Source: Schmidtea nova
Taxonomy: Eukaryota
Direction: 5' to 3'
Assembly (NCBI GenBank): GCA_044892505.1
Contig: CM097883.1
Coordinates: 216,380,001 to 216,444,000, forward strand
Length of the DNA stretch: 64,000 bases
A model generated the notes under the pieces. It ran no database searches. It was not told where the DNA came from and saw only the letters and a program-made list of their open reading frames with translations. Positions within the stretch are counted from its first letter, which is position 1, and every line of letters starts with the position of its first letter. Below, piece by piece: positions 36,903 through 64,000 of the stretch. The translations under genes were made by a program, and so were the position numbers.

Positions 36903-36967
36903 TTTAAATAAATACAAAATAAAATAAAAAACTAAATTTGTTCATAGTAAAATTTATTAAATAACAA

Positions 36968-39138: not shown

Positions 39139-39224
39139 TATTAAAAATATTTTAAATCTAACAACAAAGAGATAATTAATATTTTAATCAATATAAACAA
39201 TAATACTAATAAATAATTACAAAC

Positions 39225-39848: not shown

Positions 39849-39868
39849 ATATATTTACAGTAGTAATC

Positions 39869-40405: not shown

Positions 40406-40408
40406 ACA

Positions 40409-44108: not shown

Positions 44109-44158
44109 GCAGAGCTCAAACAGTATAAATAACCAAAGTTATTATTATTATTATAATT

Positions 44159-44535: not shown

Positions 44536-44567
44536 ACAATTTAGTTTAATAAATGTTATTGTAAAAA

Positions 44568-44969: not shown

Positions 44970-45475
44970 ATGTATTATTCGTGTTTTATTATTATTAATA
45001 TTAATATTATTAATATTTTTATAAACTTGCAGAATTCACATCCAATTTGCAGATTAACATCCATCTAGCTATACTTTTCGATAATTATAAAGAAATTGCA
45101 TGCAGGCACGCATGCAGACACTCAATTATTTCACATATAAATCGACTTGGGTGTATTCACATCTGCATCTACACCTATAAGATATTTCATAAACACTTTA
45201 GTCACGTAGTGTCTTTGTATCGTTGCATCCGACATGCATCGTGCAATATAACAAAGACATGATTCATACTTGGTGAGTGAATTATTAACACACATACTTG
45301 GTGAGAGATTTTTAACATACATACTCAGTGTGCACACATACTTTTTCTACCCTATCTCGCTTGTGATTGGCTCGTGAATAAAGTTTGTAATAAACGTGAT
45401 ATATACTATATGTTTTCATTATTTCGTCACAATTTAAACAATCTTTTAAAAATTTCAAATTATTATTATTAAACA

Positions 45476-46031
45476 ATGAACAACATTTCTCAATCGATTA
45501 AAGAAAATATCCGTAGGAATAGATTTGGTAATTTCTATTTTATTTATTTTATAAATTTTATAACAAATTAATTATAGGAAAAATGAATCTCAACATGAAG
45601 ATTTCAACCAATTTAAATACCGAAAAAGATACTGAAAAAGAGAATGAAAATGGTAAAAATTTTAAAAAATACTAATTTCATTATTGTTATTATTATTATT
45701 ACAGTAACAAATGTACAATTAACAACTCAATACTATGCAGCTAGCAGAAACGAAAGATTAAACGTTGATATCGATGGTAATTGTTTCTTTTATTTATTAT
45801 TATTAAATGATTAATTTAAAGCCGAAGAAACTTCCGAAATTAATATGCCCCTGATTAGGGAAGATCAAAATATGCCCCTGATTAGGGAAGATCAAAATAT
45901 GCCCCTTATTAGGGATGAACCCATGCCCCTTATTAGGGATGAACCCATGCCCCTTATTAGGGAAGAAAGTATGCCCCTTATTAGGGATGTTGCTGCACCA
46001 GAAGATGATCGCTATAATGGTCGGCAGAAAT
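45476..46031 (+). CDS. Multi-exon ORF with MPLIR(E/D) repeats; exons 45476-45527, 45578-45652, 45705-45776, 45822-46031 (3' end unresolved)
   Basis: Three GT-AG introns (50, 52, 45 nt) all in phase 1 keep one frame that matches ORF 45845-46096; probable further donor GTACGT at 46032. Confidence 0.6.
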
Positions 46032-46199
46032 GTACGTTTTTATTTATTTTTTATAAATTATTTATAAATTATTTATTTCAATTTTTTATAAATTAACTTT
46101 TATTGTACAAATTTTATTTATAAGTTCTATTTTATTATTTAATTATAACATCAAAGTTATTAAATAATAAAATAGTAATTATAAATAAATATTATACAA

Positions 46200-46490
46200 T
46201 AAAAATAAACTATGAAAATTTTATTTAAATGATCGATTTTATGACAATGAAACTATGAAAATTTTATTTAAATGATCGATTTTATGACAATGAAACTATG
46301 AAAATTTTATTTAAATGTTCGATTTTATGACAATGAAACTATGAAAATTTTATTTAAATGATCGATTTTATGACAATGAAACTATGAAAATTTTATTATA
46401 ATGATCGATTTTATGACAATGAAAATTTTATTATAATGATCGATTTTATGACTATGAAAATTTTATTAAAAAGATTGATTTTATGACAAT
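46200..46490. repeat. 43-bp tandem repeat (~6 copies) upstream of PolB
   Basis: Unit AAACTATGAAAATTTTATTTAAATGATCGATTTTATGACAATG at 46207, 46250 and onward. Confidence 0.9.
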
Positions 46491-46661
46491 CTTATTTTAT
46501 GAGAAAATATATTTTATGAGAAATGATAAATTATAATATTTTTATGATACATGACATTATTATACATCCGATATTGAATTTATAGTTTAAATTCAATATC
46601 GATTGTATAATAATTATTATATACTTTATAACATTATTTTTTATAATAAAATCTTGATATT

Positions 46662-49600
46662 TTGATAAATTTAGGTAAACTATACAGTTCTTATTGTAAT
46701 AGTACTTTTCATAATGACTGTCATAGTCTTATGGAAAAGTACTATTATTACAAATATAATAGTATTTTTTACCTTATTTGCCCTACTTGCAAAACTTTAC
46801 AAACATGCACATACATCGAATTCTACAATACACATAGAAACCATTTAACACAATTCAATGGTTCTAAAAAGAATTTGTTTAACTCCATTTTTGCTAATAC
46901 TATTAAACAAAATAATGTGGACAGTGTTCCCAAATTATTAAAAAGTAATGTGGACTGCGTTCCCAAACAAGTAATTATTAATGTGGACTCTGTCCCAATC
47001 TCTTGCAATGTGGACTGTGTTCCCAACCAAATAATCAATAATGTGGAATGTGTTCCCAAATTATTAAAAAGAACAAATACAGAAACAGTTTGTGAAACAC
47101 CAAATAAAATAGGTAAATTTGAGGTTATTGATATAAGTGACGATGATGACGATGTGGTTGTTATTTCGTCAGATGAAGAGGAAATAGACCCTATAGTTTT
47201 AAACTGTTACTCTGTTAAGCAAATAGGTTTAGGGTTAATATCTGTTGATTCTGATCTCAATAATTCGCACATCATCGTTAAGATGGATGTTGCACATTTA
47301 AATTTAAATAATCTTTCTGTTCCATCTCTTTTACTAGAAAAATTAACATCGATTATTTCTGCCATGAAATCTGTTAAGATCCAATTTTGTATAAAGGTTG
47401 AAATGATGAAAGACGATGAATACCAGTCTTTTGTCATTTCAAATTCAGCGCGTGTATGGACGACTGATTTCATTGATGAGGGCGTTACACATCTCAACGA
47501 AAAAATTATCCAAATGAACGAGAAGGGTTCAAATTGGAAATTAAATAAAATAGAATATATTAGTTTTGTAATAACGAAATACTCTGAAATTACCAGATTA
47601 AGAGGTAAAAAATTTCTTTCAACACCGAAATCTTTACTGAATAAGGATTGCATTATCAATGTCAATAACACCGACAATCTTTGCTTCCTTTATAGTGTCT
47701 TGTCTGTTAAAAATTATAATCAGGTTGATGATGAAATTCGACATTTACCAACAACTTATAACTTGACATCACTTCGCTTTGATATAAATGATATGCCAAT
47801 GAAGCTAAGTAACATTAGCAGATTTGAATTATCAAACCCCGGTTATGCAATTAATGTATTATCGTATGACGAAAATGCGTTAGTTGACTTGACTAATAAA
47901 AGTGAAGTGATGAAACATCCATTCATCGATATTATCTATAAAAGTAAAGTAGTGGGGGGCACTGTCATAAACCTACTTTTAATTGAAAATAAAAAAGAAT
48001 TTCATTACGCAGGAATATATAACATCGACAAATTTTTAAATTGTAAAACTTCGGCGATAACCCCAGTGAGAATTTATAATAAATGGTGTCCTAGGTGCTT
48101 GCATGGCTTCCGTAATTCAGATACATTCAAGAGACATCGTGGTCTTTGTGATGCCAACCAAATAGGCACAACTTTGTATACACTTCCTAATAATAAATTT
48201 TTACGTTTTAGCGACTGGACGAAGACAGTGACCCCTCCTTTTGTAATTTATGCCGATTTTGAGGCAATTTTACCTCGCGACTCGAAATATTACCAAAAAC
48301 ATTTGCCCATTTCTGCGGGTTTATTACTTATTAATAATTTCACTGGGGTTAAATTATATAAATCCTTCTATGGCCTTGATTGCGTTGCCAAATTCCTGCA
48401 AGAAATTGAAAATATAAGTCGAAAAATTGTAACGCCCTATTATTTCGCAAATAAAAATAAGCAAATAATATTAACCTACGAAGACATGCAACATTTTTCT
48501 TATGCAACACACTGCTACTTGTGTGAAAATATTTTAGTAAATCCTGTTAAAGACCACGATCACTTTACAGGTGCTTACCTAGGAGCAGCATGCAACGAAT
48601 GTAATATAAATAGGCAAATTCGACACACTTTGCCGATAGTTTTTCATAATCTACGGGGATATGATTTACATCATATCCTCAAATTCGGACTTTCTAAATA
48701 CGAATCGTGGAACATTAGCTGTGTTCCTGTCACCAGTGAGAAGTTTCTCAGTCTTTTTGCGAGAATCGGATCACTCACAGTGAAGTTTATCGATTCGTAT
48801 CAATTTGCCAGCGAATCTCTAAATAACTTAGTAAAAACTCTAACATCTTTTCCTCTTACTTCTTCGGAATTTACCGGGACTATTATCACCAGTAAGGGAA
48901 TTTTTCCATATGATGTTGCTACATCTTTATCTGTCTTGAGGTCGATCACTGAATTGCCGCCGATTTGGGAAGGTGTCGAAATTGCTGATTATGAAAAGGC
49001 AAAAGAAATATGGAGAGAAAATTCGTGTACCTCATTATTTGATTATATGATGGTTTACATGAAACTCGACATATTTCTTTTGGCTGATTATTTTCAACAA
49101 TTTCGTGCAAAGAGTATAGCTCATAATAAACTTGAGCCGTTGAATTTTTTGGGTATACCAGGTATGAGCTGGTGTTCTGCATTAATGACTTTGGAATCTC
49201 CTATCGAGCTTTTGCAAGATATGGAGATGTACAACTTTTTTGAGGGTGGAATCAGGGGCGGCCTCACTTTCGTTAATAAACATCATGTTAAATCAGGCCC
49301 AGATACAGAGTTGCTGTATATAGATATTAATAATCTGTATGGCTGGGCTCTTTCACAAAACTTACCGGACGGGGACTTTGTTTGGGTCACGGATGACCAC
49401 TTGCTTCATGACATCTTGTTGGAGTGCACTACGGTTGATTTATGTTCACTTAACTATGGTTATACCATAGAAGTGGATTTAGAGATACCGGCATCTATTC
49501 ACGACTTACTGGATGATTTACCAGTAGCTGCTGAAAAGATGTGTGTGCCAGGTTCGAAGGTGCATAAGTTGCTTTTGACGCACATGCCTAAGAAAAACTA

Positions 49601-50708
49601 TGTGCTTCATTGGCGACTTTTGCAGATGTTTCTGAGGTTAGGTGTTGTAGTGACCAAAATACATCGAGCTATTAAATACCATCAAAGTAGGCTTTTTAAG
49701 AAATACGTTGATACAAATACTGCTTTGAGAGCTTCTTCCACCACGAAACTCGACAAAAATTATTTTAAGTTATTAAATAACAGTCTCTACGGCAAAACCG
49801 TAGAGAATCTGAAAAAACGTATAAATTTAAGACTGTGCAATTCGGCACGTAAATTAATAACATATAGCAGTAGCCCGTATTTTAGGAAATCAACGAAAAT
49901 TGACCATAATCTTATATCAGTGCTTTTGAGGAAGGAGTCTGTGTGTTTAGATAGGCCAAGTTATATAGGACAGACGGTCTTGGACTTGTCTAAACTAAGA
50001 ATGTATGAACTACAATATATAGAGTTAGAGAAATATAGGAAAGAGTTTAATTGTAAGATTAATATTGCAGCAGGAGACACAGACTCCTTTTTTCTTGAAA
50101 TTGTTAATTGTAGGCTTTCTGTTCTTTTGCCCGCTATGGTGAGGGATCAACTTTTAGATACTTCGAACTATGACCCGAGCCATCCCTTATTTTCGCGTAA
50201 TTTGGATTCAGTTATAGGAAAGTTTAAGGACGAAAATAAGGGCTTCAAATATGAAGAGTGGGTTTTTCTTCGCCCTAAATGCTATAGTTTACTTGGCGAC
50301 GAGGAGTGTTTAAAAGCCAAGGGCATATGTTTGGCTACTGCGGGACTTAACCATTCGCATTACCTAGACTGTTACACAACAAGTAAAATATATAAAGTCC
50401 CGCAGTTTCGTATAGTCTCAAAAAATCATCAGGTTTATAGTGTCAAAAATACAAAAACGGCACTCAATTGCAACGACGACAAACGCAATTGGGTGTCGAA
50501 AAACAAAAGTTTTGCATATGGGCACTATAGGGTAGAAAATACTATTATAGGTTATGATGAAACAATTACCCCAGCCGAACCTGATGGATTTGATGATGAG
50601 GAGTTCGATGATGGCGAAACGGCTGAATCGCGCAGACTCCACGAATACCTGGTGAGGATGGAGCAGCAATTGCGTGATCAGCCATCTACATCCACCGGTA
50701 TATATTGA
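46662..50708 (+). CDS. Protein-primed family B DNA polymerase with a terminal-protein-like N-terminal region
   Basis: CFLYSVLS, YADFE, EndoVII-like KDHDHFTG, FHNLRGYD, YIDINNLYG, KLLNNSLYGKT, AGDTDS. N-terminal NVD(S/C)VP repeats. True start uncertain (the ORF-track start is TTG). Confidence 0.96.
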   Translation: MINLGKLYSSYCNSTFHNDCHSLMEKYYYYKYNSIFYLICPTCKTLQTCTYIEFYNTHRNHLTQFNGSKKNLFNSIFANTIKQNNVDSVPKLLKSNVDCVPKQVIINVDSVPISCNVDCVPNQIINNVECVPKLLKRTNTETVCETPNKIGKFEVIDISDDDDDVVVISSDEEEIDPIVLNCYSVKQIGLGLISVDSDLNNSHIIVKMDVAHLNLNNLSVPSLLLEKLTSIISAMKSVKIQFCIKVEMMKDDEYQSFVISNSARVWTTDFIDEGVTHLNEKIIQMNEKGSNWKLNKIEYISFVITKYSEITRLRGKKFLSTPKSLLNKDCIINVNNTDNLCFLYSVLSVKNYNQVDDEIRHLPTTYNLTSLRFDINDMPMKLSNISRFELSNPGYAINVLSYDENALVDLTNKSEVMKHPFIDIIYKSKVVGGTVINLLLIENKKEFHYAGIYNIDKFLNCKTSAITPVRIYNKWCPRCLHGFRNSDTFKRHRGLCDANQIGTTLYTLPNNKFLRFSDWTKTVTPPFVIYADFEAILPRDSKYYQKHLPISAGLLLINNFTGVKLYKSFYGLDCVAKFLQEIENISRKIVTPYYFANKNKQIILTYEDMQHFSYATHCYLCENILVNPVKDHDHFTGAYLGAACNECNINRQIRHTLPIVFHNLRGYDLHHILKFGLSKYESWNISCVPVTSEKFLSLFARIGSLTVKFIDSYQFASESLNNLVKTLTSFPLTSSEFTGTIITSKGIFPYDVATSLSVLRSITELPPIWEGVEIADYEKAKEIWRENSCTSLFDYMMVYMKLDIFLLADYFQQFRAKSIAHNKLEPLNFLGIPGMSWCSALMTLESPIELLQDMEMYNFFEGGIRGGLTFVNKHHVKSGPDTELLYIDINNLYGWALSQNLPDGDFVWVTDDHLLHDILLECTTVDLCSLNYGYTIEVDLEIPASIHDLLDDLPVAAEKMCVPGSKVHKLLLTHMPKKNYVLHWRLLQMFLRLGVVVTKIHRAIKYHQSRLFKKYVDTNTALRASSTTKLDKNYFKLLNNSLYGKTVENLKKRINLRLCNSARKLITYSSSPYFRKSTKIDHNLISVLLRKESVCLDRPSYIGQTVLDLSKLRMYELQYIELEKYRKEFNCKINIAAGDTDSFFLEIVNCRLSVLLPAMVRDQLLDTSNYDPSHPLFSRNLDSVIGKFKDENKGFKYEEWVFLRPKCYSLLGDEECLKAKGICLATAGLNHSHYLDCYTTSKIYKVPQFRIVSKNHQVYSVKNTKTALNCNDDKRNWVSKNKSFAYGHYRVENTIIGYDETITPAEPDGFDDEEFDDGETAESRRLHEYLVRMEQQLRDQPSTSTGIY

Positions 50709-51833
50709 GGTAAATTTATTTATTATTTTATTCATTTTCATTATTATTATTATTATTATTATAGACTATACGCCAATAGGAAAAAGAAGAAGAAAAATAT
50801 TAAGAAGAATATTGATGATTTTTACTATGAACAAAGCTTTATTTGGAATAAATTGAATGGAAATAAATTTTTTAATTTAAAATAATTGTTGTTTTTTCCC
50901 TATTGGGTTATATTTTTTAAATATTTGTTGAATTTTATTTTTATAAGTTTTTATTATTTTTGTTAATATTATATTTTTTCTATGNNNNNNNNNNNNNNNN
51001 NNNNNNNNNNNNNNNNNNNNNNNNNNNNNNNNNNNNNNNNNNNNNNNNNNNNNNNNNNNNNNNNNNNNNNNNNNNNNNNNNNNNNNNNNNNNNNNNNNNN
51101 NNNNNNNNNNNNNNNNNNNNNNNNNNNNNNNNNNNNNNNNNNNNNNNNNNNNNNNNNNNNNNNNNNNNNNNNNNNNNNNNNNNNNNNNNNNNNNNNNNNN
51201 NNNNNNNNNNNNNNNNNNNNNNNNNNNNNNNNNNNNNNNNNNNNNNNNNNNNNNNNNNNNNNNNNNNNNNNNNNNNNNNNNNNNNNNNNNNNNNNNNNNN
51301 NNNNNNNNNNNNNNNNNNNNNNNNNNNNNNNNNNNNNNNNNNNNNNNNNNNNNNNNNNNNNNNNNNNNNNNNNNNNNNNNNNNNNNNNNNNNNNNNNNNN
51401 NNNNNNNNNNNNNNNNNNNNNNNNNNNNNNNNNNNNNNNNNNNNNNNNNNNNNNNNNNNNNNNNNNNNNNNNNNNNNNNNNNNNNNNNNNNNNNNNNNNN
51501 NNNNNNNNNNNNNNNNNNNNNNNNNNNNNNNNNNNNNNNNNNNNNNNNNNNNNNNNNNNNNNNNNNNNNNNNNNNNNNNNNNNNNNNNNNNNNNNNNNNN
51601 NNNNNNNNNNNNNNNNNNNNNNNNNNNNNNNNNNNNNNNNNNNNNNNNNNNNNNNNNNNNNNNNNNNNNNNNNNNNNNNNNNNNNNNNNNNNNNNNNNNN
51701 NNNNNNNNNNNNNNNNNNNNNNNNNNNNNNNNNNNNNNNNNNNNNNNNNNNNNNNNNNNNNNNNNNNNNNNNNNNNNNNNNNNNNNNNNNNNNNNNNNNN
51801 NNNNNNNNNNNNNNNNNNNNNNNNNNNNNNNNN

Positions 51834-52916
51834 AGAAGAACGCGCGTTTCACGCGCGTTCAATGAGTACTGTGATTTGTCTTATAAAACAAGGAAGAAGA
51901 ACGCGCGTTTCACGCGCGTTCAATGAGTACTGTGATTTGTCTTAAACACACACACACACAATTTATCTCTGTACAAAATTATTATTATTAAATATTATAT
52001 TTCATTAGTCTTTGTTTCGTTGCACATGGATTGCATTGTCTTTGTTTCTTTGCACATGGATTGCATTGTCTTTGTTAATATTTATTGATGAGTCATACTG
52101 ATGAGTCATACTGATGAGTCATACTGATGAGTCATACTGATGAGTCATACTGATGAGTCATACTGATGAGTCATACCAATGAGTGATACTGATGAGTCAT
52201 ATTGATGAGTCATACTAATGAGTCATCCCAATGAGTCATACTGATGAGTCATTAAGAAAACCGTACTTACCTTTATATCCTTGTTTTGTACCCTTTGAAG
52301 GTTGAGCACCCACCATAGACCTTGGAAGGTATGACCATTGTGTGCACCCTTCAATTACCTTTTGTTTGATATGTATATTATAAGGATTGTAAAAGGTTGA
52401 AGGTTTTTGACCCCTTGAAGGTTAAGGATCCTCCATACACCTTCGAGGGTATGACCATCTTACTTACCTCCCAATTACCTTTTGTTTGATATGTATATTA
52501 TAAGGATTGTAAAAGGTTGAAGGTTTTTGACCCCTTTGAAGGTTAAGGATCCTCCATACACCCTCGAGGGTATGACCATTGGATAGACCTTTAAAAGACC
52601 TTTCGAATGATACCCTTGTTTGAAGGTCTGACCTTATCGGACCCTTGGGAATTTAAATTTAAAATTTGAATTTGAAATGAGTCATCGATGACGTCATAAA
52701 ATTCAAATTTGAAATGAGTCATCGATGACGTCATCGATGAGTCATCGATGAGTCATGTGATGAGTCATCGATGAGTCATCGATGAGTCATCGATGACGTC
52801 ATTTATGAGTCATCGATGACGTCATTTATGAGTCATCGGGGGGGGTCATGGATGACTCATCGATGACGTCATTTCCTTTGTTCTGCGATGACTCATGGTG
52901 CACACTTCTGTCTACT
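51834..52916 (-). repeat. Right TIR (at least 1083 bp; inner boundary in the N gap)
   Basis: Reverse complement of the left TIR. Confidence 0.95.
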
Positions 52917-53939
52917 TCCATTCGTTTGCGGGTGATATGGTGAAGTTCTCAATTTTGCTATTCTGAAATAGTTTGTCACCTCGTTCAATAACTCACTCAT
53001 AAAATTAGTTCCTTGGTCTGTGAGTATTTGTTTTGGAGTTCCGTATCTGCAACATATTTCTTCCACTAGAATTTTTGCTACGGTTTTTGCTCTTTGGTCT
53101 TGCATGGCAAATGCTTCCGGGAATTTCGTCAGATAATCCGTTATTACCAATATATAAATATTTCCGTTTAAACTTTCTGGTAATGGTCCTATTACGTCCA
53201 TTGCTATAGTTGTCATTGGCTCTGCTGGTATCGGCATTGGTTGTAGCGGGTTCTTCCATTTCTTCCCACTATCCTTTCTGGTTGCGCAAGTTAGACAATT
53301 TTTAATCCATTCCTTTATATCTTCTTCCATTGTTCGCCAATAATATTTTTGTCTCATACGATTCATGGTCTTTTTCTCGGACATATGACCTCCCAATTTC
53401 CCATCATGGTATTGGATCATTATCTCTTTCCTTCTGTTTTCCGGTAAACACATCAATCTCTTTTCCCCGTCTTGTATTAACAACCATCCTTTATTTATTA
53501 TGTAGCGATGTTGATATTTTCCTATATGTTCCTTTAATTCTTTATTATCTTTGAATACCTCCATGTTTCGAGATGTTAGGAACTCTATGATTTGTCCTAA
53601 TTCTTTGTCTTCTTGTTGATCTTTCTTAAGCTCGCTAAAATCTAAATCTTCTGCTATTAATACACAAATTCGTTGTACATCAGGATCGGTTAATTCCGGA
53701 AATGTCAGTCTTGACATACAGTCTGCATTCGCATTTGCTCGTCCTGATTTAAATTTTATGTCCGGTGAGTACTCCTGTAACTGCATTGCCCATCGCATTA
53801 GTCTACTAGATGTTTCCTTGTGCTGTCCTAACCATACAAGCGGTTGGTGATCTGTTGTTATGCAGATGATGTGTCCCCATAATAAATATTTAAAGTGTTT
53901 AATAGCTAATATAATCGCTAATGCTTCCCGTTCTGTCAC
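52917..53939 (-). CDS. Retroelement Pol middle part: RNase H end and integrase N-half
   Basis: TEREALAIILAIKHF, TDHQPL, GRANANADCMSR; HHCC zinc finger; IAMDVIGPL (D1), TDQGTNF (D2); ends YHPQTNG at the TSD. Confidence 0.93.
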
Positions 53940-55960
53940 TGAGTAATTTTCTCATGCTTTTTGAATGTTCGGCTATAATATCCGATTACCCGTTCCTTTC
54001 CTTCGTCGTCGTATTGTCCTAATACGGCTCCTGCTGCATATCCGCTTGCATCTGTTGCAAGTAGGAATGGCTTCTTGAAGTCTGGGTGTACCAATATGGG
54101 TGCGGTTATCAGTTTATCTCTCAATGTTTCAAAAGCTGTTTGTTGTTCATCTCCCCATATGAATGATACATCTTTCTTTACCAGCTCCTGTATAGGCTTT
54201 GCGATTCCGGCGTAATCTTTTATAAACTTTCTATAATATCCACATAATCCGAGGAATTCTTGTATTTGGGTTATTGTTTTTGGTACTGGGCATTCTTTTA
54301 CTTTGTCGATATTTCTAGGATCCGGTTCTTTTCCTTTTGCTGACACTATATGTCCTAAAAATGTAACCTTTTCTTTTGCCCAATCGCATTTTGATGGCTT
54401 GAGTTTTAACTTCCATTGTCTAAGCCTAACGAATACATCTCGAATATCCTGTATGTGTTGTTCAAACGTGCTAAAATAAATTAATAAGTCGTCTATGTAG
54501 ACCATACACTGCTTTATTCCATGGGTGACGAAAGTCATGCATCTCTGAAATGATGCTGGTGCGTTCGTTAATCCAAATGGCATCTTTCGAAATTGATATA
54601 GGTCTCTACCGATGGTAAAGGCAGTTTTCTCTTTATCTTCTTCCTTCATTTTTATTTGCCAATATCCGCTTTTCAGATCTAACGACGTAAAATATGCTGC
54701 TCCCTGTAAGGTTAATAACATTTCATTGATGTCCGGTAATGGGTAGGTATCTCTTTTTGTCACTGTATTCAATCTTCGATAGTCGATGCAGAATCTCTGT
54801 GTTCCGTCTTTTTTCTTTACCATTACCACTGGAAATTGCCAGGGTGAACAACTGGGTTCGATTACTTCTGCATCCAACATTTTCTTCACTTCTGCTTCTG
54901 CTACTGCTTTCTGTGCTTCCGCTAATTTGTACGGCCTTAATGCAATTGGTGTTTCATCTGTTAATGGTATTGTATGTAGTGTGACATCACATGTTCCTAG
55001 ATCTAAATCGGATGCTGCAAATATGTCCTTATACTCCATCAAAAGTTTTTCTAACTGCTTCTTTTGATCCTCATTTAATAATTCACTATCAATATTCCAG
55101 GTTGGTTCTTTATCTTCCTCTGCTCCTTCTATTGGTAGTTCGATATCCATCATTGGGGTTAATTTACCTAATCTTTCGTTTTCGTAGATTATTTTGTCCT
55201 CCTCGTCGAAATTTACCACGTTTATTGGGATTTCTCCATTATCATTTATGTTGACTAATCCTCTTGCCATTGGCAACGCTTTTCTTTTCTCGAATCTCTT
55301 ACTTGGTTCGAAAATCATATCCCCTTGGATTGTCGGGTCTATTTTTACGTAACATATTTTTTCCTTTCTTGCGGGTATTATCATTTGCTTTGAACTTGTC
55401 ACTTTGGCTTCTATTGCGCATATTTGTCCTGTGCGATCCTTTAGTCTCATTGTTCCGAGGTCGATTACAATCTCTTTAAATAGTGCTGGCATCAAATCTG
55501 TTCCGATAATGCAAGGTACGCTTAATGCTGGTATGACAGCTACGTACGTATCGATTTCCGTGTTTAAATGGCGTATTTTTACCCACCATCTTCCTGCTAC
55601 TTCTACAACTTCTTTGCTACATGCAATTACATGGACGTTTGTCCTTTCTATTTCCCGTCTTTGCTCTTGTGGTATCCATTTGATGTCGATGGCGGAAATG
55701 TTTGCTCCATTGTCGATCATTGCTTCGATTTCTCTTCCGTTAATTTCTATTGTCGTGGTTAATACTGGACCTGTGTTTGATGACATTACGGCGATCGTGT
55801 GTGTATCTCCTTGTGGATCTACGCTTCTACATCTTCTCATTTTATAATCTTCTGGTATCATGGGGTATACATTTGTCATTGGCATCATTTGCATTGTGCT
55901 ATTTTTCCTCCTTGTAGTGGTTCTTGATACATTGTTGGTGGAGGTGCGTAACATTTCCAT
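53936..55960 (-). CDS. Retroelement Pol 5' part: aspartic protease, reverse transcriptase and RNase H start; frameshift at ~53947
   Basis: AMIDNGAN, RFCIDYRRLN, LDLKSGYWQI, FGLTNAPASFQ, VYIDD, LATDAS. Adding one A to GAGAAAATTAC restores HEKNYSVTERE and joins the next ORF. Confidence 0.95.
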   Translation of the reverse strand: MEMLRTSTNNVSRTTTRRKNSTMQMMPMTNVYPMIPEDYKMRRCRSVDPQGDTHTIAVMSSNTGPVLTTTIEINGREIEAMIDNGANISAIDIKWIPQEQRREIERTNVHVIACSKEVVEVAGRWWVKIRHLNTEIDTYVAVIPALSVPCIIGTDLMPALFKEIVIDLGTMRLKDRTGQICAIEAKVTSSKQMIIPARKEKICYVKIDPTIQGDMIFEPSKRFEKRKALPMARGLVNINDNGEIPINVVNFDEEDKIIYENERLGKLTPMMDIELPIEGAEEDKEPTWNIDSELLNEDQKKQLEKLLMEYKDIFAASDLDLGTCDVTLHTIPLTDETPIALRPYKLAEAQKAVAEAEVKKMLDAEVIEPSCSPWQFPVVMVKKKDGTQRFCIDYRRLNTVTKRDTYPLPDINEMLLTLQGAAYFTSLDLKSGYWQIKMKEEDKEKTAFTIGRDLYQFRKMPFGLTNAPASFQRCMTFVTHGIKQCMVYIDDLLIYFSTFEQHIQDIRDVFVRLRQWKLKLKPSKCDWAKEKVTFLGHIVSAKGKEPDPRNIDKVKECPVPKTITQIQEFLGLCGYYRKFIKDYAGIAKPIQELVKKDVSFIWGDEQQTAFETLRDKLITAPILVHPDFKKPFLLATDASGYAAGAVLGQYDDEGKERVIGYYSRTFKKHEKITQ

Positions 55961-58900
55961 GCGTCGGCTGGATTCTTTTCGATGTATTGTGGTGCTTGGT
56001 TCTTATACACTTGTCCTCCCTTATAGTCGTCATCGTCATCATCGTCGTCACTCGAATCATTTTGGGTTTTATATCCTTTCATCCTCTCCCATAAACCTTT
56101 TCTTTCTCTCTTGAGCTGTTGTCTTGCTTGTTCGTCATTCATTATCTTTTTAAATTTTCGTCCTACTTCTTCATCTGTTCCCTTCATTTTTGCGAGTATC
56201 TTCAACAATCTCTTTATTCGATGTATGTCCTTTGAGTGTCCGTGCAACACCATCGTTTTCGCAAGGAATGGTAAAAACCCTACTACCATTTTCCAATTCA
56301 CTTTCTTTTCTCTCTTGTAGATGTCAAAACACGCGAGCATTTGCGTTATTATCACTCTGACGATTTGTATTATTAATATAACCCCCAGTATTCCAGCCAT
56401 CATTTGTCCGAATATCAGAAATCTTCCCCACATTGCTTTCATCATATTTTCTGTGGCTTTCTTGAAATGTGCTGGTGACAACAACAGCTCATAATTCGGT
56501 CCTTCTCGATAATTCGTTCCTCCCGTTATCGTTACGATATTTGACAGTAATGCTTCTCTTCTCGCTGGAAATAATATATTCTGCCTTGCTGCTTCTAAAT
56601 CCTTTGGACTATATATTCCGTTGTTTGAGACATCTACGTCGCTGAATTGCCTATCCTTTGACAACTGCATTAATTCGAATTCTCTTGGTGCTATCACTTC
56701 GGATCTTCCTGGGAACATAACCCATTTACCATCTGGTTTCTGATAAAGCGGTCCATACGCATTACTACAGTTGAATGGATTTGGTTCAAACCCTGGTGGA
56801 TTGATGATTCTCGTCACCGGTTGAACGTATCGTACTTTTCCTTTGTAGTCGATTTCTAACTCATTTGTACAGGTTCCAGGTTTCAACTGCGTTGTTGCTG
56901 CTAGCGACGCGTGTGTCTTTTCGCAAATGTATACGTACATTGCTTCTCCAACCACTCTTCCGAAATGTCCTTCTCTCAGTGGTAATAATGGCATCGCGCT
57001 ATCTGGATTCGTAATCGCTACGGCCAACTTCGTCTTTAATATTTCTCGATTCAGTATACAATCATTATTTATCAGATCGTAGTACACTTTTTGTAATGAG
57101 GCTTGTCCTCTATGGAATAGGAAATCCATTTTATTATTCACATACAAGTGTAGTTTGATATCCATTGTGTCGATTTTGGGTTTCGCATTCGGCACTTCTT
57201 GTTTTGACACATATATTCCTGGGTAATTCGTTTCGTATACCGTTGTACTACACTTAAGGGTTGCTTTCCCTTTTATGAACCTCATTCCCACATCCTGATT
57301 TGTGGTTATCAACACTGTTGGTGTGGCTCTCATCTCTATCCGTTTTTCTCTATGATCTGGTTTCAGTTGTCTTTTATTCTCTAAAGCTTCCTTGAGATGC
57401 TTTGCTCTAGCTTTGTCGTCATCGTCTTCTTCCTGGAACGTTTTTCCTTGAATTTCGTCGAACTGTGCTCCTTGTAGCAGTTGTAATTGACATTCGTTCA
57501 CCTTTGGTTTGTATACTAATGTTGACATTCCCGTTTGACACATGCTCCTGTCGATTTTACACATGGATAACGTTTTCATTTCTCCCGTTGTTGGTTCGAA
57601 GAATGCTTCGTAGCTTTTTAGTTCGACTATATACGTATCCATCACCACTAAGTTGGTTGCGGGTACTCCGAATATCGGGTAGGTTTCTCCATGACAATAT
57701 CCTTCTCCTCCCGTAATCCGTCCTGCTACATAGTATGTCTGTTGCAGCATCATTCCTGGCTTTCCTCTTATCTTGATTTTATCTCTTGTTGTTACTTCTC
57801 CATGTTTAAACAGTGCTTCGCAGTCTTCTCCTTGTAACATGATTGGTTCTCTTTCCGTTCCTGGCATGACAATTGCTGAATAATGTCCTCTCCCGCAGTA
57901 GAATGCGAATCTCGTCTTCTGCACTTTACATTCATTCACCATTGTCTTTATGAGTTCTGCTTCTTGATACACGTGGTACCATTGTTCCTTTTTAATCTTT
58001 TGCAACTCTACTGGAGTTGCATCTTTGCATTGCTCCGTACCTCTCAATGAATACTTTTCTCCTAACTTCATTTGGTCGCAATCAAACACTTCGAATGCTG
58101 TTGCGCTATCGGTGCTAATCATCCATATCAACATCATCATTATTATAGAGCTCAAATTCATTGATGACTTCGCGTTTCCTGTTCCTGCTTGTTCTTTTTC
58201 TAACTCTTCTAATATTTTTTCGAATTTCTTTTTCATATTCTTGGCTTGCGTTTTCTTCTGGTTAGTTTTTATAAATGTTTCCCATCCTCCTTTGTTAATG
58301 ACGTATGGTTCTATTTCTCTGGCTATAATTTTTGCGGTATTTTTTATATGTCTCTCTAATGCAGTGGGTTTTGGTCGACCTCTACTCAGTGTCAACAGAT
58401 TGTAGATCGTGTATGCAATGGCTATTACGTATTTATTATCAGTTTCCGCTCCTTCTGTCAATTTCTTTATTAACGTGGTGGTTCCTTGCCAGTCTAGATG
58501 ATTTGACTTCGTCTTTTCTTTTATGAATTCCGGTAAGATGGGTGCGATTGCGCTGTGTAGTGACTTCGCCTTTTCGCTTATTTCAGTTATCCGCCAGTAT
58601 TTTCTCAATTCCGGATCAATTATTGCCAATATTTCCATTATTGTTTTCGATATCCATTCCTCCCCTTGACATATTGGTGTTGTCTCTTTTTCTTTCATCT
58701 CCGCAATTTTATTTAGTTTCCTTAGGCATAATTCCCATTGATCTTGTCTCTTTTCATCTTTATTTCTTATAACTACAGTTGCTGGATCTGTCTTAGGTCT
58801 ACCTCGAGGTCGTCTATCCATTCCTGTACCTGTTTCCACAAACCTTGTTGCCCGTCCGGTTTCTTCCGTGACATCTCTTGGTTCGTTAGCTCTTTCCTCT

Positions 58901-61900
58901 AACCATCTTTCCATTTCTTGTGTTAATTGTATATTTTCGACATTCGCTCCTCTCGTTTCGTCTTCTGTCAAATCGTTTACTTCTTCTATTATTATTTCTT
59001 CTTCGACTTCTGTTTCTCCGGTGTTGGTTACTTGTATTGTCGTAGGTAGTTCTTGTATTCTTTCGAAAATGTTATCGTCTTTTTCCTTTGTTAATTCGGT
59101 TAGCTCTTCTATCATATCGTCGCTATCCGTCAAAATTTCGTCTACGTCGTATGGTTGTGGTGGAGTCATTTCTCTATTCCCTCTGGATGTTGTCTCAGAT
59201 CGTCTTGAACTTGTCCCTGGCGTTAGTACTGATTTCATCGGGCTCGGCGTACTTATACTTCCGTGTGGTTTATGGTTTTCTTCTTTACGTTTCAATGGTT
59301 GCCCCGCTATTGCTTCCACTGTCAGGGTATTCATGAGATCTAGTTGTGCTGGCGTTATTCCAATTTCCAAACTGTTATCTAATGATCGTCCTTGGTGTTG
59401 TAAATGGAATGGTGGTTCGTATCTCAATTTCTTTTTAATATCTCGAATTTTTTCTGCTATTCCAACCCACAATTCCTCCTTATCCTTGTTTGGGTATATT
59501 ATTCTTAAATGTACCTTTTGTGGAATTTCTTGCGAGAATTCTTGATTTCTCCATTTCCTGATTACGTGGTCTAGTTGTTCCGGGCACCACTCGTTAACTC
59601 TTTTATATTCCGCGATTGCTTTTGCTACTTTACGCAAGCATGTTATATCCTCCCCATTTACCACGAAAAAATCTGCGAGACCCTTTATTACTTTTCTCTT
59701 ACCGTGCGCATTAGTTTTTAATATTTCGACAAATTCTTCCGTTTTTTGCTTTTCCCTTTCTAGCCACATAGCCGCGGTTTCTGGTCCATCTAGGTCTATT
59801 GGCGTAGCTTTCCTTGTCACCATGCAAACTCTTCCTATCTCTGGTTCGCAGTCATCTTCAATTCCTCTTTTATATTCTTCTTCATATTCCCCTTCTTTTG
59901 GTTCCCAACATTTTCCTTTCTCGTTCCATTGTTTTTCTACGGGTGTTTGTATTCGTCTGTTGAGATTGAGTTCTTCTAATACGTTTTCCCACTCTGGCCA
60001 ACTTCGCCAATTTCGATAAATTTCTACTATTTGTTGTAATTTACGCACAACTTTTTTCCGTCGTTCCCGTTCTCTTTTCTCGTCTTTAGCAGTTTCTCTG
60101 GGTGTATCGTTCATTCTGCTAACGTGGATGGTTTGGTGATTATCCCATATACCGATTTTGTATAGTCGTCTCTCATCGTGATCCCATAATACATGTTCGT
60201 TGTATTGTATGATTATGTCGTCTTCCCATTCGTCTTCTGGTTCTCTTTGCACTAGTGTCTCGTTAATGACATTTATTAATTCTTTAATGGTGCAATCCGC
60301 TACCACTTCAATTTCTTTGGTGTCTTCATTAGTCAATTCTACTGAAATTTTTAGATCCGTTATTTGCCCTTGTCTAAACATTGTTTTTCCCATTTTTGCG
60401 ATTAATTTGTCGTGTGAGATCTGTGACCATCTCGTGTGGCTTGTGTCACGTATGCACTCAATACATCGTTTCAATTTCTCGTATTCGCTTCTCATTAACT
60501 CTTTTCTATGTTTTTTGACTTGTGGTATGATTTGTTCTATCAGGGAATTTAGATTCTTTCGTAAGACTCGTTCTTTCTCGTATTCTAACCGTGGTTTTAT
60601 TCTCCTTTCGAAGCACGTGTTTGCTTCCCTTGCAACTTCTTGTAGGTTCTCTTCTTCCTTTTCATCACATATTGATAACAGGGTTATTTCTCCTGGCCAT
60701 ATACCTGTTTCTACTAAGTGCGTTCTTTTCTTTACGAGTCTATTCTGCGAATAGATGAATTTGTTTTTATATGAGCTCCCTAGCCTGTTCTCTACCCATC
60801 TGTAGATATCGTCTGTAAATGGAGTTTTAATCCAGATTCTTGGTGTAGATGTATTTATTATTATTGAGATGGTGTAATTGAGGAGTGGTTCCTCTATTAA
60901 TTTCCCTACGTATCGATTCAACATGTCTACTTCCCGGTCTTGTAACCATTCTTTGTAGTTCATTTGTAATAATGCTTTCATGAATTTCCGGTATTGTTTC
61001 TTATCCATGAACTCTTCGTTATATATTACTTCTAGCGAGTTATCTAGTAATTTCTGGATTTCATCTACTTTTATCTGTGTAGGTTCTGAGGTCTTTACTA
61101 CTTTTCTCTCTTTATTTTCGTCTTCGGATTCGTTTAATATGTCTCCTGCTAGGCTACTGATGTCACTATCTTCTTCCTCATCGGAAAACTCTCTGGTGGT
61201 ATTTCTTAACATATTAATATGTGCTATTTGGTTCGTTTTCCCTTGTATATTCTCCGTTGGTTTTGTTTTGTTTTTTCTGATTTCTGGTGTTAGTTCATTT
61301 TTGTCCTCTATTACTTCGACTTTTTCCATTTTCTTTCCCAACTCGTCTATCTCTTTTAAACGTCTTCTTATCATTTTTCCTTCAAATATTCGCCTGATTC
61401 GGGTTTCGTGACGTATTGGTGGTGGAATTTCTTCTGGTTCTATTTCTTTAATAATCATCACGTTTCTTTTTGTTTCTACTACTCCCAAGTTTTCCCATAT
61501 GTCCGTTAATTCCAACTTTACTTTTGGCGCACCTTCTATTTGTAGGAACGCTTCTCTGGGCAGTTTCGTTACTCCTGGGACCATCTGGTTTACTTTGTTG
61601 AATAATATTCCCACTTCTTCTTTTACGTTATACTGGAATCTAAACACGGATTTGTTGGGCATGATTACCATCATTCCTCTTTTCCAAATCTCCTTTCCTT
61701 CTTCCTGGTTTATCTCGGTTTCCACTTCCTTTTTTGTTTCTTTTTCTACTTCTTCATCTTTTTGTACTATCTCTTTTCGACTTTCGTTGTCGGCTGGATT
61801 TGGGTCTATCGAATTTATTTCCGGTGTGGTTTCTTTCTCGTGGTTATCTGTTTGCTTTATTGCTCTCATCATGTTAATTCTTATAGGTTGTCGTTCTCTT

Positions 61901-63669
61901 TCTTTCTGTTTTTGTTCATCCTCTCTTTGTATTCTTGCCCATTCCTGAGCATGTCGTGCTTGACTTTCTCGATTCAATCGTTCGTTTTCGCTTTCTATTT
62001 TTCTCATCATGTTAATTTGCTGTTGATTGATTTGCGGATTTCCTCTCGTCGTATTGTTTATAAGTTCCGTCAACCTTTGAACTTCTTGCATCAAATGTAT
62101 TTCTTTGGTGGTGGTTTTGTTCTGACTATTGTTATTATTGACTTGTTGGTTCCCATAATCTGGTCGGTTTACGGTATTTGTTTGATTTCCGTAATTTGGT
62201 CGGCTCCCATTACTCTGCCAGTTTCCTCGCTGATTACTTTTTTGTCCGCAATTTCTTGAATAGTGACCAGGTCGTCCGCAATTAAAACAGATTATTGTAG
62301 AACATCTGCTTTCCGAGTGTCCTTTAACTCCACATTTTCCGCAATTCAAATTTTGATAGCATTCTTGCTGCCAGTGTCCCAACTTCCCGCATGTTTTACA
62401 TTGTTTTGTTTGTCTTTGAGGGTTGTAATTGTTTTGGTTTTCAAAGTTCTGCACTTTATTTCCTTCATTCCTTCGTTGAGGGGGTGGTCGGTTTAATTGT
62501 TGCGAATTTGGAATGTGATTGTTGAGATTTACCTCTGGTTCGGTTTGTGCTGTGTCCATGGCTAAATAAATTCTGCCCTCACTTCCTATCATATGCAATT
62601 CGAATCTGTTAGCTGTTTCTAACGCTTGATCAATGGTCTTGCATCCTTGGCATCCAACTTGCGCTCTTATGTCGGGTCTTCTTAATCCTCCTATGAAGAT
62701 GGCTGCCATTAACTCCTCGTTTATTGGACCTCCATCCTTGAATACCGATTTTGCTAATTTTTTCAGTTCACTTGCGTATACCGCATTAGATTCATTCATC
62801 TTTTGTTTCCTCATTGAAAATTCTATGAATGCCTCGCTTAGCACTTTATTTATTCCAAATGTTTGTTGGAAAAAATCCTTTATCGCTGTCCAGCTTGTAG
62901 GTGGATTGGTACCATTTTTCGCTTCCAAATATAGGTCCAATGCACTATCTTTCAAATATAACTGAATTCTGCTTACTGTTGTTTCCGCTTTCCACTTGCA
63001 TACTTCTACGAATATGCCAAATTCTTTTAAAAAGGTTTCTAATTTACTCGCATCTCCGTTAAACGGTTCTCCTGAAAATTTATCCTTTATTTCTTCTCTT
63101 GGTTCACCCATTTCAATTCCGCTGTCTTGAGTTATTTTACTTTCGTTTCCTCTTGTTTCTAGTTCGTTGTTATGTTCGTCTTCTGTTTCACTCGAGCTTG
63201 AATCGCTTTCTGTTTCTCTTATTACTTCGTTATCCGATTTTATACTTTCGTTATCACTCTCGTTGATTTCTATCTCTGGTTCTACCTCGTTTTCTACTTC
63301 TTCGATATTATCGTTGTTAGTTTCGTCGATCTCTCCTTCTTGTTCTATCTCGTGTTCTATTTCTTCGATATTATCGTTGTTAGTTTCGTCGCTTTCTATT
63401 TCACTTGTTTGGTTCTCCTTGGGTTCCGCTTGGTTTTCTTTGTTACTTGAGCTGTTGCTTACTATTGACAATTTATCGTTTTCGATAATCGATTTATCTC
63501 TTATTATTCTCCTCGCTTTACTCCCTTGTGGGTTCTTGTTGTTATCTTTGCCGGCTTTCTGCTTTTTTGTTGTTTTTGTTGTTGTACTAATTTTGTCTTT
63601 TTTGTTAATATTGCTGCCGACTTCCTTTTCCGTTGGCTTTACTACGACAATCTTTGCTCCTTTTCTCAA
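55885..63669 (-). CDS. ORF1 polyprotein (2594 aa): Gag, accessory domains and envelope glycoprotein
   Basis: Capsid-like region from MGEP (63111; FNGD...LETFL...LYLKDSALDLY); three CX2CX4HX4C knuckles at 62401-62248; signal-like MNLSSIIMMMLIWMIS then AFEVFDC; Cys-rich ectodomain and TM at ~56425-56330. No ATG at the ORF 5' end. Confidence 0.9.
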   Translation of the reverse strand: MRKGAKIVVVKPTEKEVGSNINKKDKISTTTKTTKKQKAGKDNNKNPQGSKARRIIRDKSIIENDKLSIVSNSSSNKENQAEPKENQTSEIESDETNNDNIEEIEHEIEQEGEIDETNNDNIEEVENEVEPEIEINESDNESIKSDNEVIRETESDSSSSETEDEHNNELETRGNESKITQDSGIEMGEPREEIKDKFSGEPFNGDASKLETFLKEFGIFVEVCKWKAETTVSRIQLYLKDSALDLYLEAKNGTNPPTSWTAIKDFFQQTFGINKVLSEAFIEFSMRKQKMNESNAVYASELKKLAKSVFKDGGPINEELMAAIFIGGLRRPDIRAQVGCQGCKTIDQALETANRFELHMIGSEGRIYLAMDTAQTEPEVNLNNHIPNSQQLNRPPPQRRNEGNKVQNFENQNNYNPQRQTKQCKTCGKLGHWQQECYQNLNCGKCGVKGHSESRCSTIICFNCGRPGHYSRNCGQKSNQRGNWQSNGSRPNYGNQTNTVNRPDYGNQQVNNNNSQNKTTTKEIHLMQEVQRLTELINNTTRGNPQINQQQINMMRKIESENERLNRESQARHAQEWARIQREDEQKQKERERQPIRINMMRAIKQTDNHEKETTPEINSIDPNPADNESRKEIVQKDEEVEKETKKEVETEINQEEGKEIWKRGMMVIMPNKSVFRFQYNVKEEVGILFNKVNQMVPGVTKLPREAFLQIEGAPKVKLELTDIWENLGVVETKRNVMIIKEIEPEEIPPPIRHETRIRRIFEGKMIRRRLKEIDELGKKMEKVEVIEDKNELTPEIRKNKTKPTENIQGKTNQIAHINMLRNTTREFSDEEEDSDISSLAGDILNESEDENKERKVVKTSEPTQIKVDEIQKLLDNSLEVIYNEEFMDKKQYRKFMKALLQMNYKEWLQDREVDMLNRYVGKLIEEPLLNYTISIIINTSTPRIWIKTPFTDDIYRWVENRLGSSYKNKFIYSQNRLVKKRTHLVETGIWPGEITLLSICDEKEEENLQEVAREANTCFERRIKPRLEYEKERVLRKNLNSLIEQIIPQVKKHRKELMRSEYEKLKRCIECIRDTSHTRWSQISHDKLIAKMGKTMFRQGQITDLKISVELTNEDTKEIEVVADCTIKELINVINETLVQREPEDEWEDDIIIQYNEHVLWDHDERRLYKIGIWDNHQTIHVSRMNDTPRETAKDEKRERERRKKVVRKLQQIVEIYRNWRSWPEWENVLEELNLNRRIQTPVEKQWNEKGKCWEPKEGEYEEEYKRGIEDDCEPEIGRVCMVTRKATPIDLDGPETAAMWLEREKQKTEEFVEILKTNAHGKRKVIKGLADFFVVNGEDITCLRKVAKAIAEYKRVNEWCPEQLDHVIRKWRNQEFSQEIPQKVHLRIIYPNKDKEELWVGIAEKIRDIKKKLRYEPPFHLQHQGRSLDNSLEIGITPAQLDLMNTLTVEAIAGQPLKRKEENHKPHGSISTPSPMKSVLTPGTSSRRSETTSRGNREMTPPQPYDVDEILTDSDDMIEELTELTKEKDDNIFERIQELPTTIQVTNTGETEVEEEIIIEEVNDLTEDETRGANVENIQLTQEMERWLEERANEPRDVTEETGRATRFVETGTGMDRRPRGRPKTDPATVVIRNKDEKRQDQWELCLRKLNKIAEMKEKETTPICQGEEWISKTIMEILAIIDPELRKYWRITEISEKAKSLHSAIAPILPEFIKEKTKSNHLDWQGTTTLIKKLTEGAETDNKYVIAIAYTIYNLLTLSRGRPKPTALERHIKNTAKIIAREIEPYVINKGGWETFIKTNQKKTQAKNMKKKFEKILEELEKEQAGTGNAKSSMNLSSIIMMMLIWMISTDSATAFEVFDCDQMKLGEKYSLRGTEQCKDATPVELQKIKKEQWYHVYQEAELIKTMVNECKVQKTRFAFYCGRGHYSAIVMPGTEREPIMLQGEDCEALFKHGEVTTRDKIKIRGKPGMMLQQTYYVAGRITGGEGYCHGETYPIFGVPATNLVVMDTYIVELKSYEAFFEPTTGEMKTLSMCKIDRSMCQTGMSTLVYKPKVNECQLQLLQGAQFDEIQGKTFQEEDDDDKARAKHLKEALENKRQLKPDHREKRIEMRATPTVLITTNQDVGMRFIKGKATLKCSTTVYETNYPGIYVSKQEVPNAKPKIDTMDIKLHLYVNNKMDFLFHRGQASLQKVYYDLINNDCILNREILKTKLAVAITNPDSAMPLLPLREGHFGRVVGEAMYVYICEKTHASLAATTQLKPGTCTNELEIDYKGKVRYVQPVTRIINPPGFEPNPFNCSNAYGPLYQKPDGKWVMFPGRSEVIAPREFELMQLSKDRQFSDVDVSNNGIYSPKDLEAARQNILFPARREALLSNIVTITGGTNYREGPNYELLLSPAHFKKATENMMKAMWGRFLIFGQMMAGILGVILIIQIVRVIITQMLACFDIYKREKKVNWKMVVGFLPFLAKTMVLHGHSKDIHRIKRLLKILAKMKGTDEEVGRKFKKIMNDEQARQQLKRERKGLWERMKGYKTQNDSSDDDDDDDDYKGGQVYKNQAPQYIEKNPADAWKCYAPPPTMYQEPLQGGKIAQCK

Positions 63670-64000
63670 GGGGATTACTTTTGTATTCTCAATTTTCTTG
63701 TCCTATCTCTTATCGTATTCTGATTCTTCTTGCTTGATTGATTGATTTGATTGATTTGTATATTTAAAATACAAAGGTCCTCAACGATACATTATTGTTA
63801 TCGTCGCGCTTTTATTCCCTTTCTTTCGGGATTACTTATTACTGGGTTTTCATTATTTCCCCATTCCCAGATTCTCCTTTATTTTTAGTCTATTTAAATT
63901 ATCTATAGACTGGTCACAATTATCTATTTATGTCGTAATAATTATCTATACTTTATAAATCAATTACTTTTCCCACAGTTGCCCAATTTATTGGTCGCTC

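What the first reader, a model, noticed from the sequence alone, without database searches (positions are those of the whole stretch)
58096..58660. Bcl-2-like domain just upstream of the Env signal peptide, which could double as its membrane anchor
Seen: a helical block ending IEPYVINKGGWETF (GGW at ~58290), which fits the BH2 pattern W-I-x3-G-G-W-x2-F. The BH1 NWGR motif is not conserved (DNKYVIAI at the equivalent place). The hydrophobic signal follows about 40 aa later. Established: Bcl-2 proteins are C-terminally membrane anchored, and viral Bcl-2s are often highly diverged. Inference: after signal-peptidase cleavage the element would release a tail-anchored apoptosis modulator in equal amount with Env.
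Basis: inference. Interest (0 to 1): 0.8.

Follow-up and report, generated by a model that had tools for sequence, protein, structure and literature searches.

The report
Bcl-2 fold in giant retroelement polyprotein
A giant virus-like retrotransposon carries a strongly diverged copy of the Bcl-2 cell-death-regulator fold directly in front of its envelope protein, an arrangement already reported for planarian Burro elements, and the envelope's signal peptide likely stays on the Bcl-2 part as a membrane anchor.

Summary
The domain is real. Window 58246-58683 (minus strand) lies in the polyprotein of a ~30-kb, recently inserted, high-copy Gypsy LTR element, in the order Gag - unknown region - Bcl-2 fold - internal signal - class III Env - PR-RT-RH-IN. 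Pfam misses it, but sister elements pass the Pfam Bcl-2 cut-off, a profile built without it finds it, and its alignment-based model matches only Bcl-2-fold structures in the top 35 rows (Z up to 11.9). GGW is kept in all 8 lineages compared from this genome, and is absent from one outside relative that keeps the domain. A BCL2 motif followed in frame by env is in print for planarian Burro elements (PMC6431247), and this scan noted the same on other DNA. The tail-anchor idea is plausible and untested: topology fits and rubella capsid is a precedent, but the segment looks like an ordinary short ER signal peptide, also present in a relative lacking the domain. The BH1 groove glycine is replaced in all 8 lineages, so canonical BH3 binding is doubtful. 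Verdict: new member of a known kind; modest interest.

The parts
58246..58683 (-). Bcl-2-fold helical domain (about 146 aa) inside the polyprotein
   Evidence: model residues 20-165 align to Bfl-1, Bcl-xL, BOK, BAX, BAK and viral Bcl-2s, Z up to 11.9; Foldseek; leave-one-out profile
58273..58314 (-). BH2-like motif ending GGWETF (Tyr in place of the first Trp)
   Evidence: sequence; GGW invariant in 14 of 14 rows of A3
58432..58443 (-). BH1-equivalent position, TDNK in place of NWGR
   Evidence: alignment A1 against L041, which reads NWDR
58162..58245 (-). charged linker, predicted helix; length varies between lineages
   Evidence: model helix 166-185; GGW-to-Env distance 45-65 aa
58096..58161 (-). 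internal Env signal peptide; candidate C-terminal anchor of the upstream product
   Evidence: hydropathy peak at aa 1851; 19 uncharged residues, small-residue c-region; cleavage site inferred by eye, no predictor run
55885..58095 (-). Env, class III (Monjiviricetes/gB-type) fusion glycoprotein with C-terminal TM near 56360-56421
   Evidence: PF24664 E 5.6e-71; TM
58792..58815 (-). AT-hook-like RGRP motif upstream of the domain
   Evidence: sequence; similar motif in L043 and P0002; name recalled, not tested
58684..61200 (-). unannotated polyprotein region between Gag and the Bcl-2 fold
   Evidence: no convincing Pfam family
61201..63702 (-). Gag region with CCHC zinc knuckles
   Evidence: zf-CCHC E 1.4e-08
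53936..56002 (-). PR-RT-RNase H start (separate frame in this copy)
   Evidence: Pfam RVP, RVT_1, RT_RNaseH
52917..53951 (-). RNase H end and integrase N-part (separate frame in this copy)
   Evidence: Pfam RT_RNaseH, Integrase_H2C2, rve
35137..52916 (.). 17.8-kb insertion with terminal inverted repeats and a 6-bp target duplication, splitting the integrase; Polinton/Maverick-like
   Evidence: intact copy L097 matches the window on both sides of it; junctions; class name from recalled features
28861..35136 (-). 3' part of the same polyprotein: integrase end, ankyrin repeats, weak Fn3-like repeats
26910..28289 (-). accessory ORF, TRAF-like (RING, TRAF zinc finger, MATH)
   Evidence: MATH_2 E 1.3e-21, zf-TRAF E 3.1e-07
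21742..24889 (-). 3' LTR (3148 bp); the 5' LTR lies just right of the window (L100:2198-5345)
   Evidence: 99.81% identical, 6 mismatches

Best explanation
This is a captured, strongly diverged Bcl-2-fold domain that sits in frame just before the Env signal peptide in the polyprotein of a giant Burro-type Gypsy element; it likely stays tethered to the cytosolic face of the ER by that signal peptide after cleavage and likely dampens death or stress signalling in the host cell. Shown: the fold (model and profiles), the domain order, the single reading frame in intact copies, retention across lineages. Inferred: the 5,600-plus-residue polyprotein is made on one frame; the internal signal inserts at the ER translocon and sends Env to the lumen; signal peptidase cuts before the Env start; the Env TM returns PR-RT-IN to the cytosol; the signal remains the C-terminus of the upstream product, as for rubella capsid. 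The anchor is a by-product of Env topology rather than a captured Bcl-2 tail. My odds by step: Bcl-2 fold 0.95; signal retained as anchor about 0.6; pro-survival effect about 0.5, probably not through a canonical BH1 groove.
For: Fold: VIA top 35 rows all Bcl-2 fold, best Bfl-1 Z 11.9, rmsd 3.0, 139 aligned; Foldseek PDB 48 of 48 listed rows Bcl-2 family; viral library ranks 1-9 and 11 viral Bcl-2s; alignment held element sequences only. Sequence: L041 and L043 pass the Pfam Bcl-2 cut-off (35.1 and 33.5 against 31.4 bits); element versus stand-alone profile 96.3%, E 1.7e-9; element profile finds Bcl-xL at E 2e-6. Kept under selection: dN/dS 0.14-0.51 in 7 of 8 computable pairs. One frame: 33 of 150 scored copies have an open frame of 5,600 aa or more with no stop in the match. 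Topology. Precedent: rubella capsid keeps the E2 signal peptide, needs it to reach mitochondria, and is anti-apoptotic (PMC3040668, passages). The element also carries TRAF and ankyrin domains.
Against: No direct Pfam hit; PDB sequence search E about 1.8; no Foldseek row reaches E 0.001; only 1 of 5 models was confident (pLDDT 67 against 46-52) and the signal region has pLDDT under 50. BH1 Gly replaced in all 8 lineages. No BH3 consensus in the domain. The signal is short and ends acidic, unlike mitochondrial Bcl-2 tails (recalled), and resembles that of P0002, which lacks the domain. One pair gave dN/dS 1.01, Env is more constrained than the domain in most pairs, pairs share L062, several are saturated, and none involves the window's own lineage. 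P0003 keeps the domain but not GGW. In rubella the signal was not needed for protection.
Confidence: 0.5

Rival explanations
1. The domain is released from the membrane: the element's protease cuts in the linker, or signal peptide peptidase cuts the signal within the membrane (as recalled for hepatitis C core), leaving a soluble or peripheral Bcl-2-fold protein.
For: Short h-region flanked by Ser/Asn/Thr, 19-residue hydropathy 1.45; linker variable in length and sequence, 45-65 aa from GGW to Env.
Against: None of the recurring protease-site-like motif in the linker of 5 of 5 lineages scanned; the motif itself is my inference.
Confidence: 0.2
2. The fold is used as a signalling-adaptor inhibitor, like poxvirus Bcl-2-fold proteins A46, A52, B14 and N1 (functions recalled), acting with the element's TRAF and ankyrin domains on innate-immune signalling rather than on Bak/Bax.
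For: BH1 glycine replaced by Asp, Glu or Asn in all 8 lineages; TRAF and ankyrin domains on the same element; these poxvirus proteins appear among the fold matches.
Against: They score lower (Z 4.8-7.4) than cellular and herpesviral pro-survival proteins (Z 9.6-11.9); BH2 GGW is kept, and Arg/Lys at the BH1 Arg position in 3 of 8 lineages.
Confidence: 0.15
3. The domain has a structural role: a helical, membrane-proximal matrix-like module that holds the Gag-side product next to Env during particle assembly; any death-regulating role is lost in this lineage.
For: Fixed position next to the signal in all lineages examined; longest branch of the tree and loss of Pfam signal in the window's lineage.
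Against: P0002 has the same kind of Env and signal with no such domain, so assembly does not need it in general.
Confidence: 0.1
4. Env is made separately, from a spliced RNA or from the Met at the start of the signal, so domain and Env are not made one to one.
For: A Met sits at the start of the signal in the window and in L051, L061, L062; spliced env is the rule in insect gypsy elements (recalled).
Against: No Met between GGW and the signal core in L040 and L067; no good acceptor-like site before the signal (best 8 of 15 pyrimidines).
Confidence: 0.05

Closest known systems
Burro / GYPSM1 giant Gypsy-like LTR elements of planarians (as described in PMC6431247, section 7 read; it cites Jurka 2007 and Grohme et al. 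2018, not seen)
   Same: About 30 kb, high copy, one ~5,000-aa polyprotein, Gag with CCHC knuckles, BCL2-like motif, mononegavirus-like env in frame between BCL2 and PR, MATH/TRAF and ankyrin domains.
   Different: Here the ORF is longer (about 5,650-5,690 aa), TRAF is a downstream accessory ORF, no BIR was found in the ORFs scanned, and the Bcl-2 domain is below Pfam detection. The section does not mention the signal peptide as an anchor. No Burro sequence was available for direct comparison.
Viral Bcl-2 homologues (BHRF1, KsBcl-2, A179L, M11L, GIV66)
   Same: Diverged Bcl-2 fold carried by a virus-like element.
   Different: Those are stand-alone genes of large DNA viruses with their own tail (recalled); this one is a polyprotein domain in a reverse-transcribing element.
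Rubella virus capsid with retained E2 signal peptide (PMC3040668, passages)
   Same: Polyprotein product whose C-terminus is the next glycoprotein's signal peptide, serving as membrane anchor; anti-apoptotic.
   Different: Capsid is not a Bcl-2 homologue; retention and targeting are shown there and only inferred here.
GAG-ENV-POL errantiviruses with HSV/gB-type env (PMC13524379, passages)
   Same: Env between gag and pol in Platyhelminthes, Nematoda and Bryozoa; ectodomain flanked by signal and TM.
   Different: The main text has no occurrence of Bcl, apoptosis or Burro; supplements not seen.

Membership tests
Bcl-2 fold superfamily | Helical bundle superposable on Bcl-2 proteins over the whole domain | tested here: met
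   Z 11.9, rmsd 3.0, 139 aligned; top 35 rows Bcl-2 fold; predicted model, pLDDT 67
Bcl-2 fold superfamily | Sequence homology to Bcl-2 proteins at profile level | tested here: met
   through sister domains:
Canonical multi-BH Bcl-2 family | Pfam PF00452 over cut-off | tested here: not met
   no hit for the window's domain; 2 of 5 sister domains pass, 3 hit weakly
Canonical multi-BH Bcl-2 family | BH1 NWGR | tested here: not met
   TDNK here; Gly replaced in all 8 lineages
Canonical multi-BH Bcl-2 family | BH2 W-x4-GGW | tested here: inconclusive
   GGW kept in 14 of 14 rows; first Trp is Tyr in the window
Canonical multi-BH Bcl-2 family | BH3 motif | tested here: inconclusive
   one loose match upstream of the folded domain (aa 1662), none inside
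Canonical multi-BH Bcl-2 family | C-terminal tail anchor | tested here: inconclusive
   only the Env signal could serve; short, acidic end
Canonical multi-BH Bcl-2 family | Binds BH3 helices and regulates Bak/Bax | not testable with these tools
   needs binding and cell assays
Burro-type giant Gypsy elements | LTR element of about 30 kb, many copies | tested here: met
   about 29.7 kb between outer LTR ends in copy L097-L099 and 29.8 kb here without the insert; 150 of 150 scored matches at 96-100%
Burro-type giant Gypsy elements | Single ~5,000-aa ORF with env between BCL2-like motif and PR | tested here: met
Burro-type giant Gypsy elements | MATH/TRAF and ankyrin accessory domains | tested here: met
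Burro-type giant Gypsy elements | BIR, SUMO-like and dUTPase-like motifs | tested here: inconclusive
   not found by Pfam in the ORFs scanned; the last two were HHpred-level calls in the paper; DNA between 63,700 and the 5' LTR not scanned
Burro-type giant Gypsy elements | Sequence kinship with Burro-1 to -4, planarian host | not tested
   no Burro sequence held; host group inferred from architecture only

The most novel reading that the evidence does not exclude
A retroelement uses one hydrophobic segment twice, as Env signal peptide and as the tail anchor of a functional pro-survival Bcl-2 with a rebuilt, glycine-less groove, so that every cell making Gag, Env and Pol also gets an equal dose of a membrane-bound death inhibitor; with hundreds of near-identical young copies this would shape stem-cell survival in the host.
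Probability: 0.25. Interest if true: 0.7.

Novelty: new member of a known kind. Interest (0 to 1): 0.3.

Why it matters
Bcl-2 mimics are known from large DNA viruses; a working one in a retrotransposon polyprotein would show a germ-line parasite protecting its host cell from death. The presence of the motif before env is already published for Burro elements, so the gain here is confirmation by fold in a lineage that Pfam misses, the view across eight lineages (one likely capture, GGW kept, BH1 glycine lost) and a concrete, testable topology. It matters more only if anchoring and protection are shown at the bench.

Tried and rejected
Direct Pfam scan: no Bcl-2 hit. PDB sequence search: Bcl-xL only at E 1.7-2 over the BH2 end. 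ESM Atlas: no usable hit. Homolog searches with the domain alone found nothing: 0 of 440 candidates, 0 in 1.84 billion representatives, 0 of 5385 with alignment A3. Single-sequence model: pLDDT 49.5, Bcl-2 rows only at Z 5.7-6.6 among unrelated helical rows, not relied on. Complex prediction of the domain with a 40-residue BH3-like segment of stand-alone gene L032: no verdict, score 0.02, alignment not used. The BH3 exon of the Bak-like genes L035/L037 was not found in 9.9 kb upstream of each. No RNA holder listed; four contig sets of unknown kind showed no joint into the Env signal and say nothing on splicing or expression. Tree of 15 domains: element rows form one side of a weak branch (85/81; 87% of bootstrap trees), the window's row has the longest branch, no donor can be named. 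Grohme et al. 2018 not held. Searches for a paper on the anchor idea or on Burro Bcl-2 function found none; the library lacks most subscription journals, and I recall, unverified, a preprint on an anti-apoptotic role of the Burro1 BIR domain that these searches did not return. Rejected: chance GGW match; a stand-alone host Bcl-2 gene (it is inside the polyprotein frame).

Full report
Observation. The finding lies on the minus strand in a 2605-aa open frame, 55885..63702. The BH2-like motif has Tyr-Val for Trp-Ile. Pfam gives zinc knuckles and a Monjiviricetes fusion glycoprotein for this ORF (E 5.6e-71) and PR, RT, RNase H and integrase for the two frames that follow, but no Bcl-2.

The element. 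The domain has at least 150 copies in G000 at 96-100% identity (150 scored of 1019 candidates); 33 of the 150 lie in open frames of 5,600 aa or more with no stop in the match, 4 have a stop in the match (counted by hand). A stretch of one such copy matches window 52917-53915 and then 26253-35139, so the window holds one element, broken by two frame changes in the env-pol region and split in integrase by a 17.8-kb insertion with inverted ends. Its LTRs are 3148 bp and 99.81% identical; outer length is about 29.8 kb without the insert. The 3' half carries ankyrin repeats and a TRAF-like ORF.

Is it Bcl-2? A Pfam Bcl-2 search of G000 returned stand-alone genes and many long-frame hits. The latter are sister elements with the same order: domain, GGW, linker, hydrophobic signal, Env. 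Env-based and pattern searches gave further lineages; I compared eight: window, L041, L043, L051, L061, L062, L067, L087. In L041 a stop separates domain and signal. Of five sister domains scanned, two pass the Pfam cut-off and three hit weakly (E 0.012-0.078); the window's does not hit. A profile of those five scores the window's domain 26.5 bits, above all 1000 shuffles and all 1000 shuffles with the BH2 tail kept. The six-row element profile matches the stand-alone genes at 96.3% and Bcl-xL at E 2e-6. AlphaFold2 with 14 element rows gave pLDDT 67, pTM 0.63 for the best of five models, the other four 46-52; three rows had been found with the Bcl-2 HMM, none is a host gene. The model matches Bcl-2-fold chains in the top 35 of 50 rows (Bfl-1 Z 11.9, rmsd 3.0, 139 aligned; first unrelated row Z 4.8), in 48 of 48 Foldseek PDB rows (best E 0.009, none under 0.001) and at the top of the viral library. 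The fold is therefore well supported, by prediction.

What is kept and lost. GGW and a Tyr in the central helix are invariant in 14 of 14 rows. The BH1 glycine is replaced in all eight lineages; the window reads TDNK where L041 reads NWDR. That glycine is needed for BH3 binding in Bcl-2 and Bcl-xL, though several poxvirus proteins bind without it (both recalled). dN/dS over the domain was 0.14-0.51 in 7 of 8 computable pairs out of 10, and 1.01 in one; Env was 0.06-0.25; pairs are not independent and none includes the window's lineage. Of two outside Env relatives, P0003 has the domain (40.6 bits, 0 of 500 shuffles) without GGW, and P0002 lacks it (3.3 bits, 3 of 500). A tree puts the eight element rows on one side of a weak branch, compatible with one capture.

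The anchor. The ORF has two strong hydrophobic segments, the signal and the Env TM. That is the topology a Gag-Env-Pol polyprotein needs, and it leaves the signal on the upstream product after cleavage (inference). Domain, linker and signal are in frame in 29 of the 30 closest copies (these were chosen by identity). The signal has 19 uncharged residues, 11-residue hydropathy 2.52, 19-residue 1.45, and net charge -2 near the cut; sisters score 1.6-2.2 and P0002, without the domain, 1.60. So it is an ordinary signal peptide that could act as an anchor, more likely at the ER than at mitochondria. A recurring motif that may mark protease sites occurs five times between aa 377 and 828 and not again before Env, nor in four sister linkers; if it is the site, the anchored product is about 1,000 residues long. 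Rubella capsid shows that a retained signal peptide can anchor an anti-apoptotic polyprotein product, although there it was dispensable for protection (PMC3040668, passages).

What is known. PMC6431247 (section 7 read) reports a BCL2-like motif in Burro-2, -3 and -4, env in frame between BCL2 and PR with hits to mononegavirus glycoproteins, and suggests meddling with host apoptosis. PMC13524379 (passages) describes GAG-ENV-POL elements in flatworms without mention of Bcl. PMC11410931 (passages) only names Burro. The original Burro paper was not held; its supplement may say more. I found no paper on the signal as anchor. Two earlier notes of this scan reached the same reading on other DNA; they are not independent support, and I had read the paper before seeing them.

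Verdict. A real, diverged Bcl-2-fold domain in a Burro-type element; not a canonical Bcl-2 by motifs; arrangement already in print; anchoring likely but unshown; function untested. Interest 0.3.

Noticed in passing
window 35137-52916: Polinton/Maverick-like insertion with long inverted ends and a 6-bp target duplication inside the integrase of a very young LTR element (LTRs 99.81% identical), so the insertion is itself recent; it holds a 1352-aa polymerase-like ORF (46650-50708) and capsid-, ATPase- and integrase-like ORFs named by eye.
   Followed up: partly
window 26910-28289 (-): Complete TRAF-like ORF (RING, zinc finger, MATH) carried as an accessory gene before the 3' LTR; two more ORFs follow (25735-26823 coiled-coil, 25090-25695 with a TM-like segment).
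   Followed up: partly
window 28861-35136 (-): About 2,000 residues after integrase: ankyrin repeats, then repeated Fn3-like units with signal- and TM-like segments, resembling surface proteins embedded in the polyprotein.
   Followed up: no
window 20378-21203 and L100:7181-8006: An 826-bp inverted repeat (99.5%) flanks the element on both sides outside the LTRs; the element may sit inside a DNA transposon.
   Followed up: no
window 10293-11003 and 14223-16721 (-): Two long intron-free stretches that look like splicing factor SF3B3 (by eye), apparently one gene in two pieces.
   Followed up: no
L036, L038, L039, L042, L050: Short stand-alone Bcl-2-like ORFs (125-230 aa), some with stops, that group apart from the other host genes in the tree; they could belong to another mobile element.
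   Followed up: no
L043 and L051 upstream of the domain: One or two ubiquitin/SUMO-looking stretches between Gag and the Bcl-2 fold, as reported for Burro; seen by eye only.
   Followed up: no
window 3-2120 (+): A second polymerase-like ORF related to 46650-50708, suggesting another Polinton-like element at the left edge.
   Followed up: no
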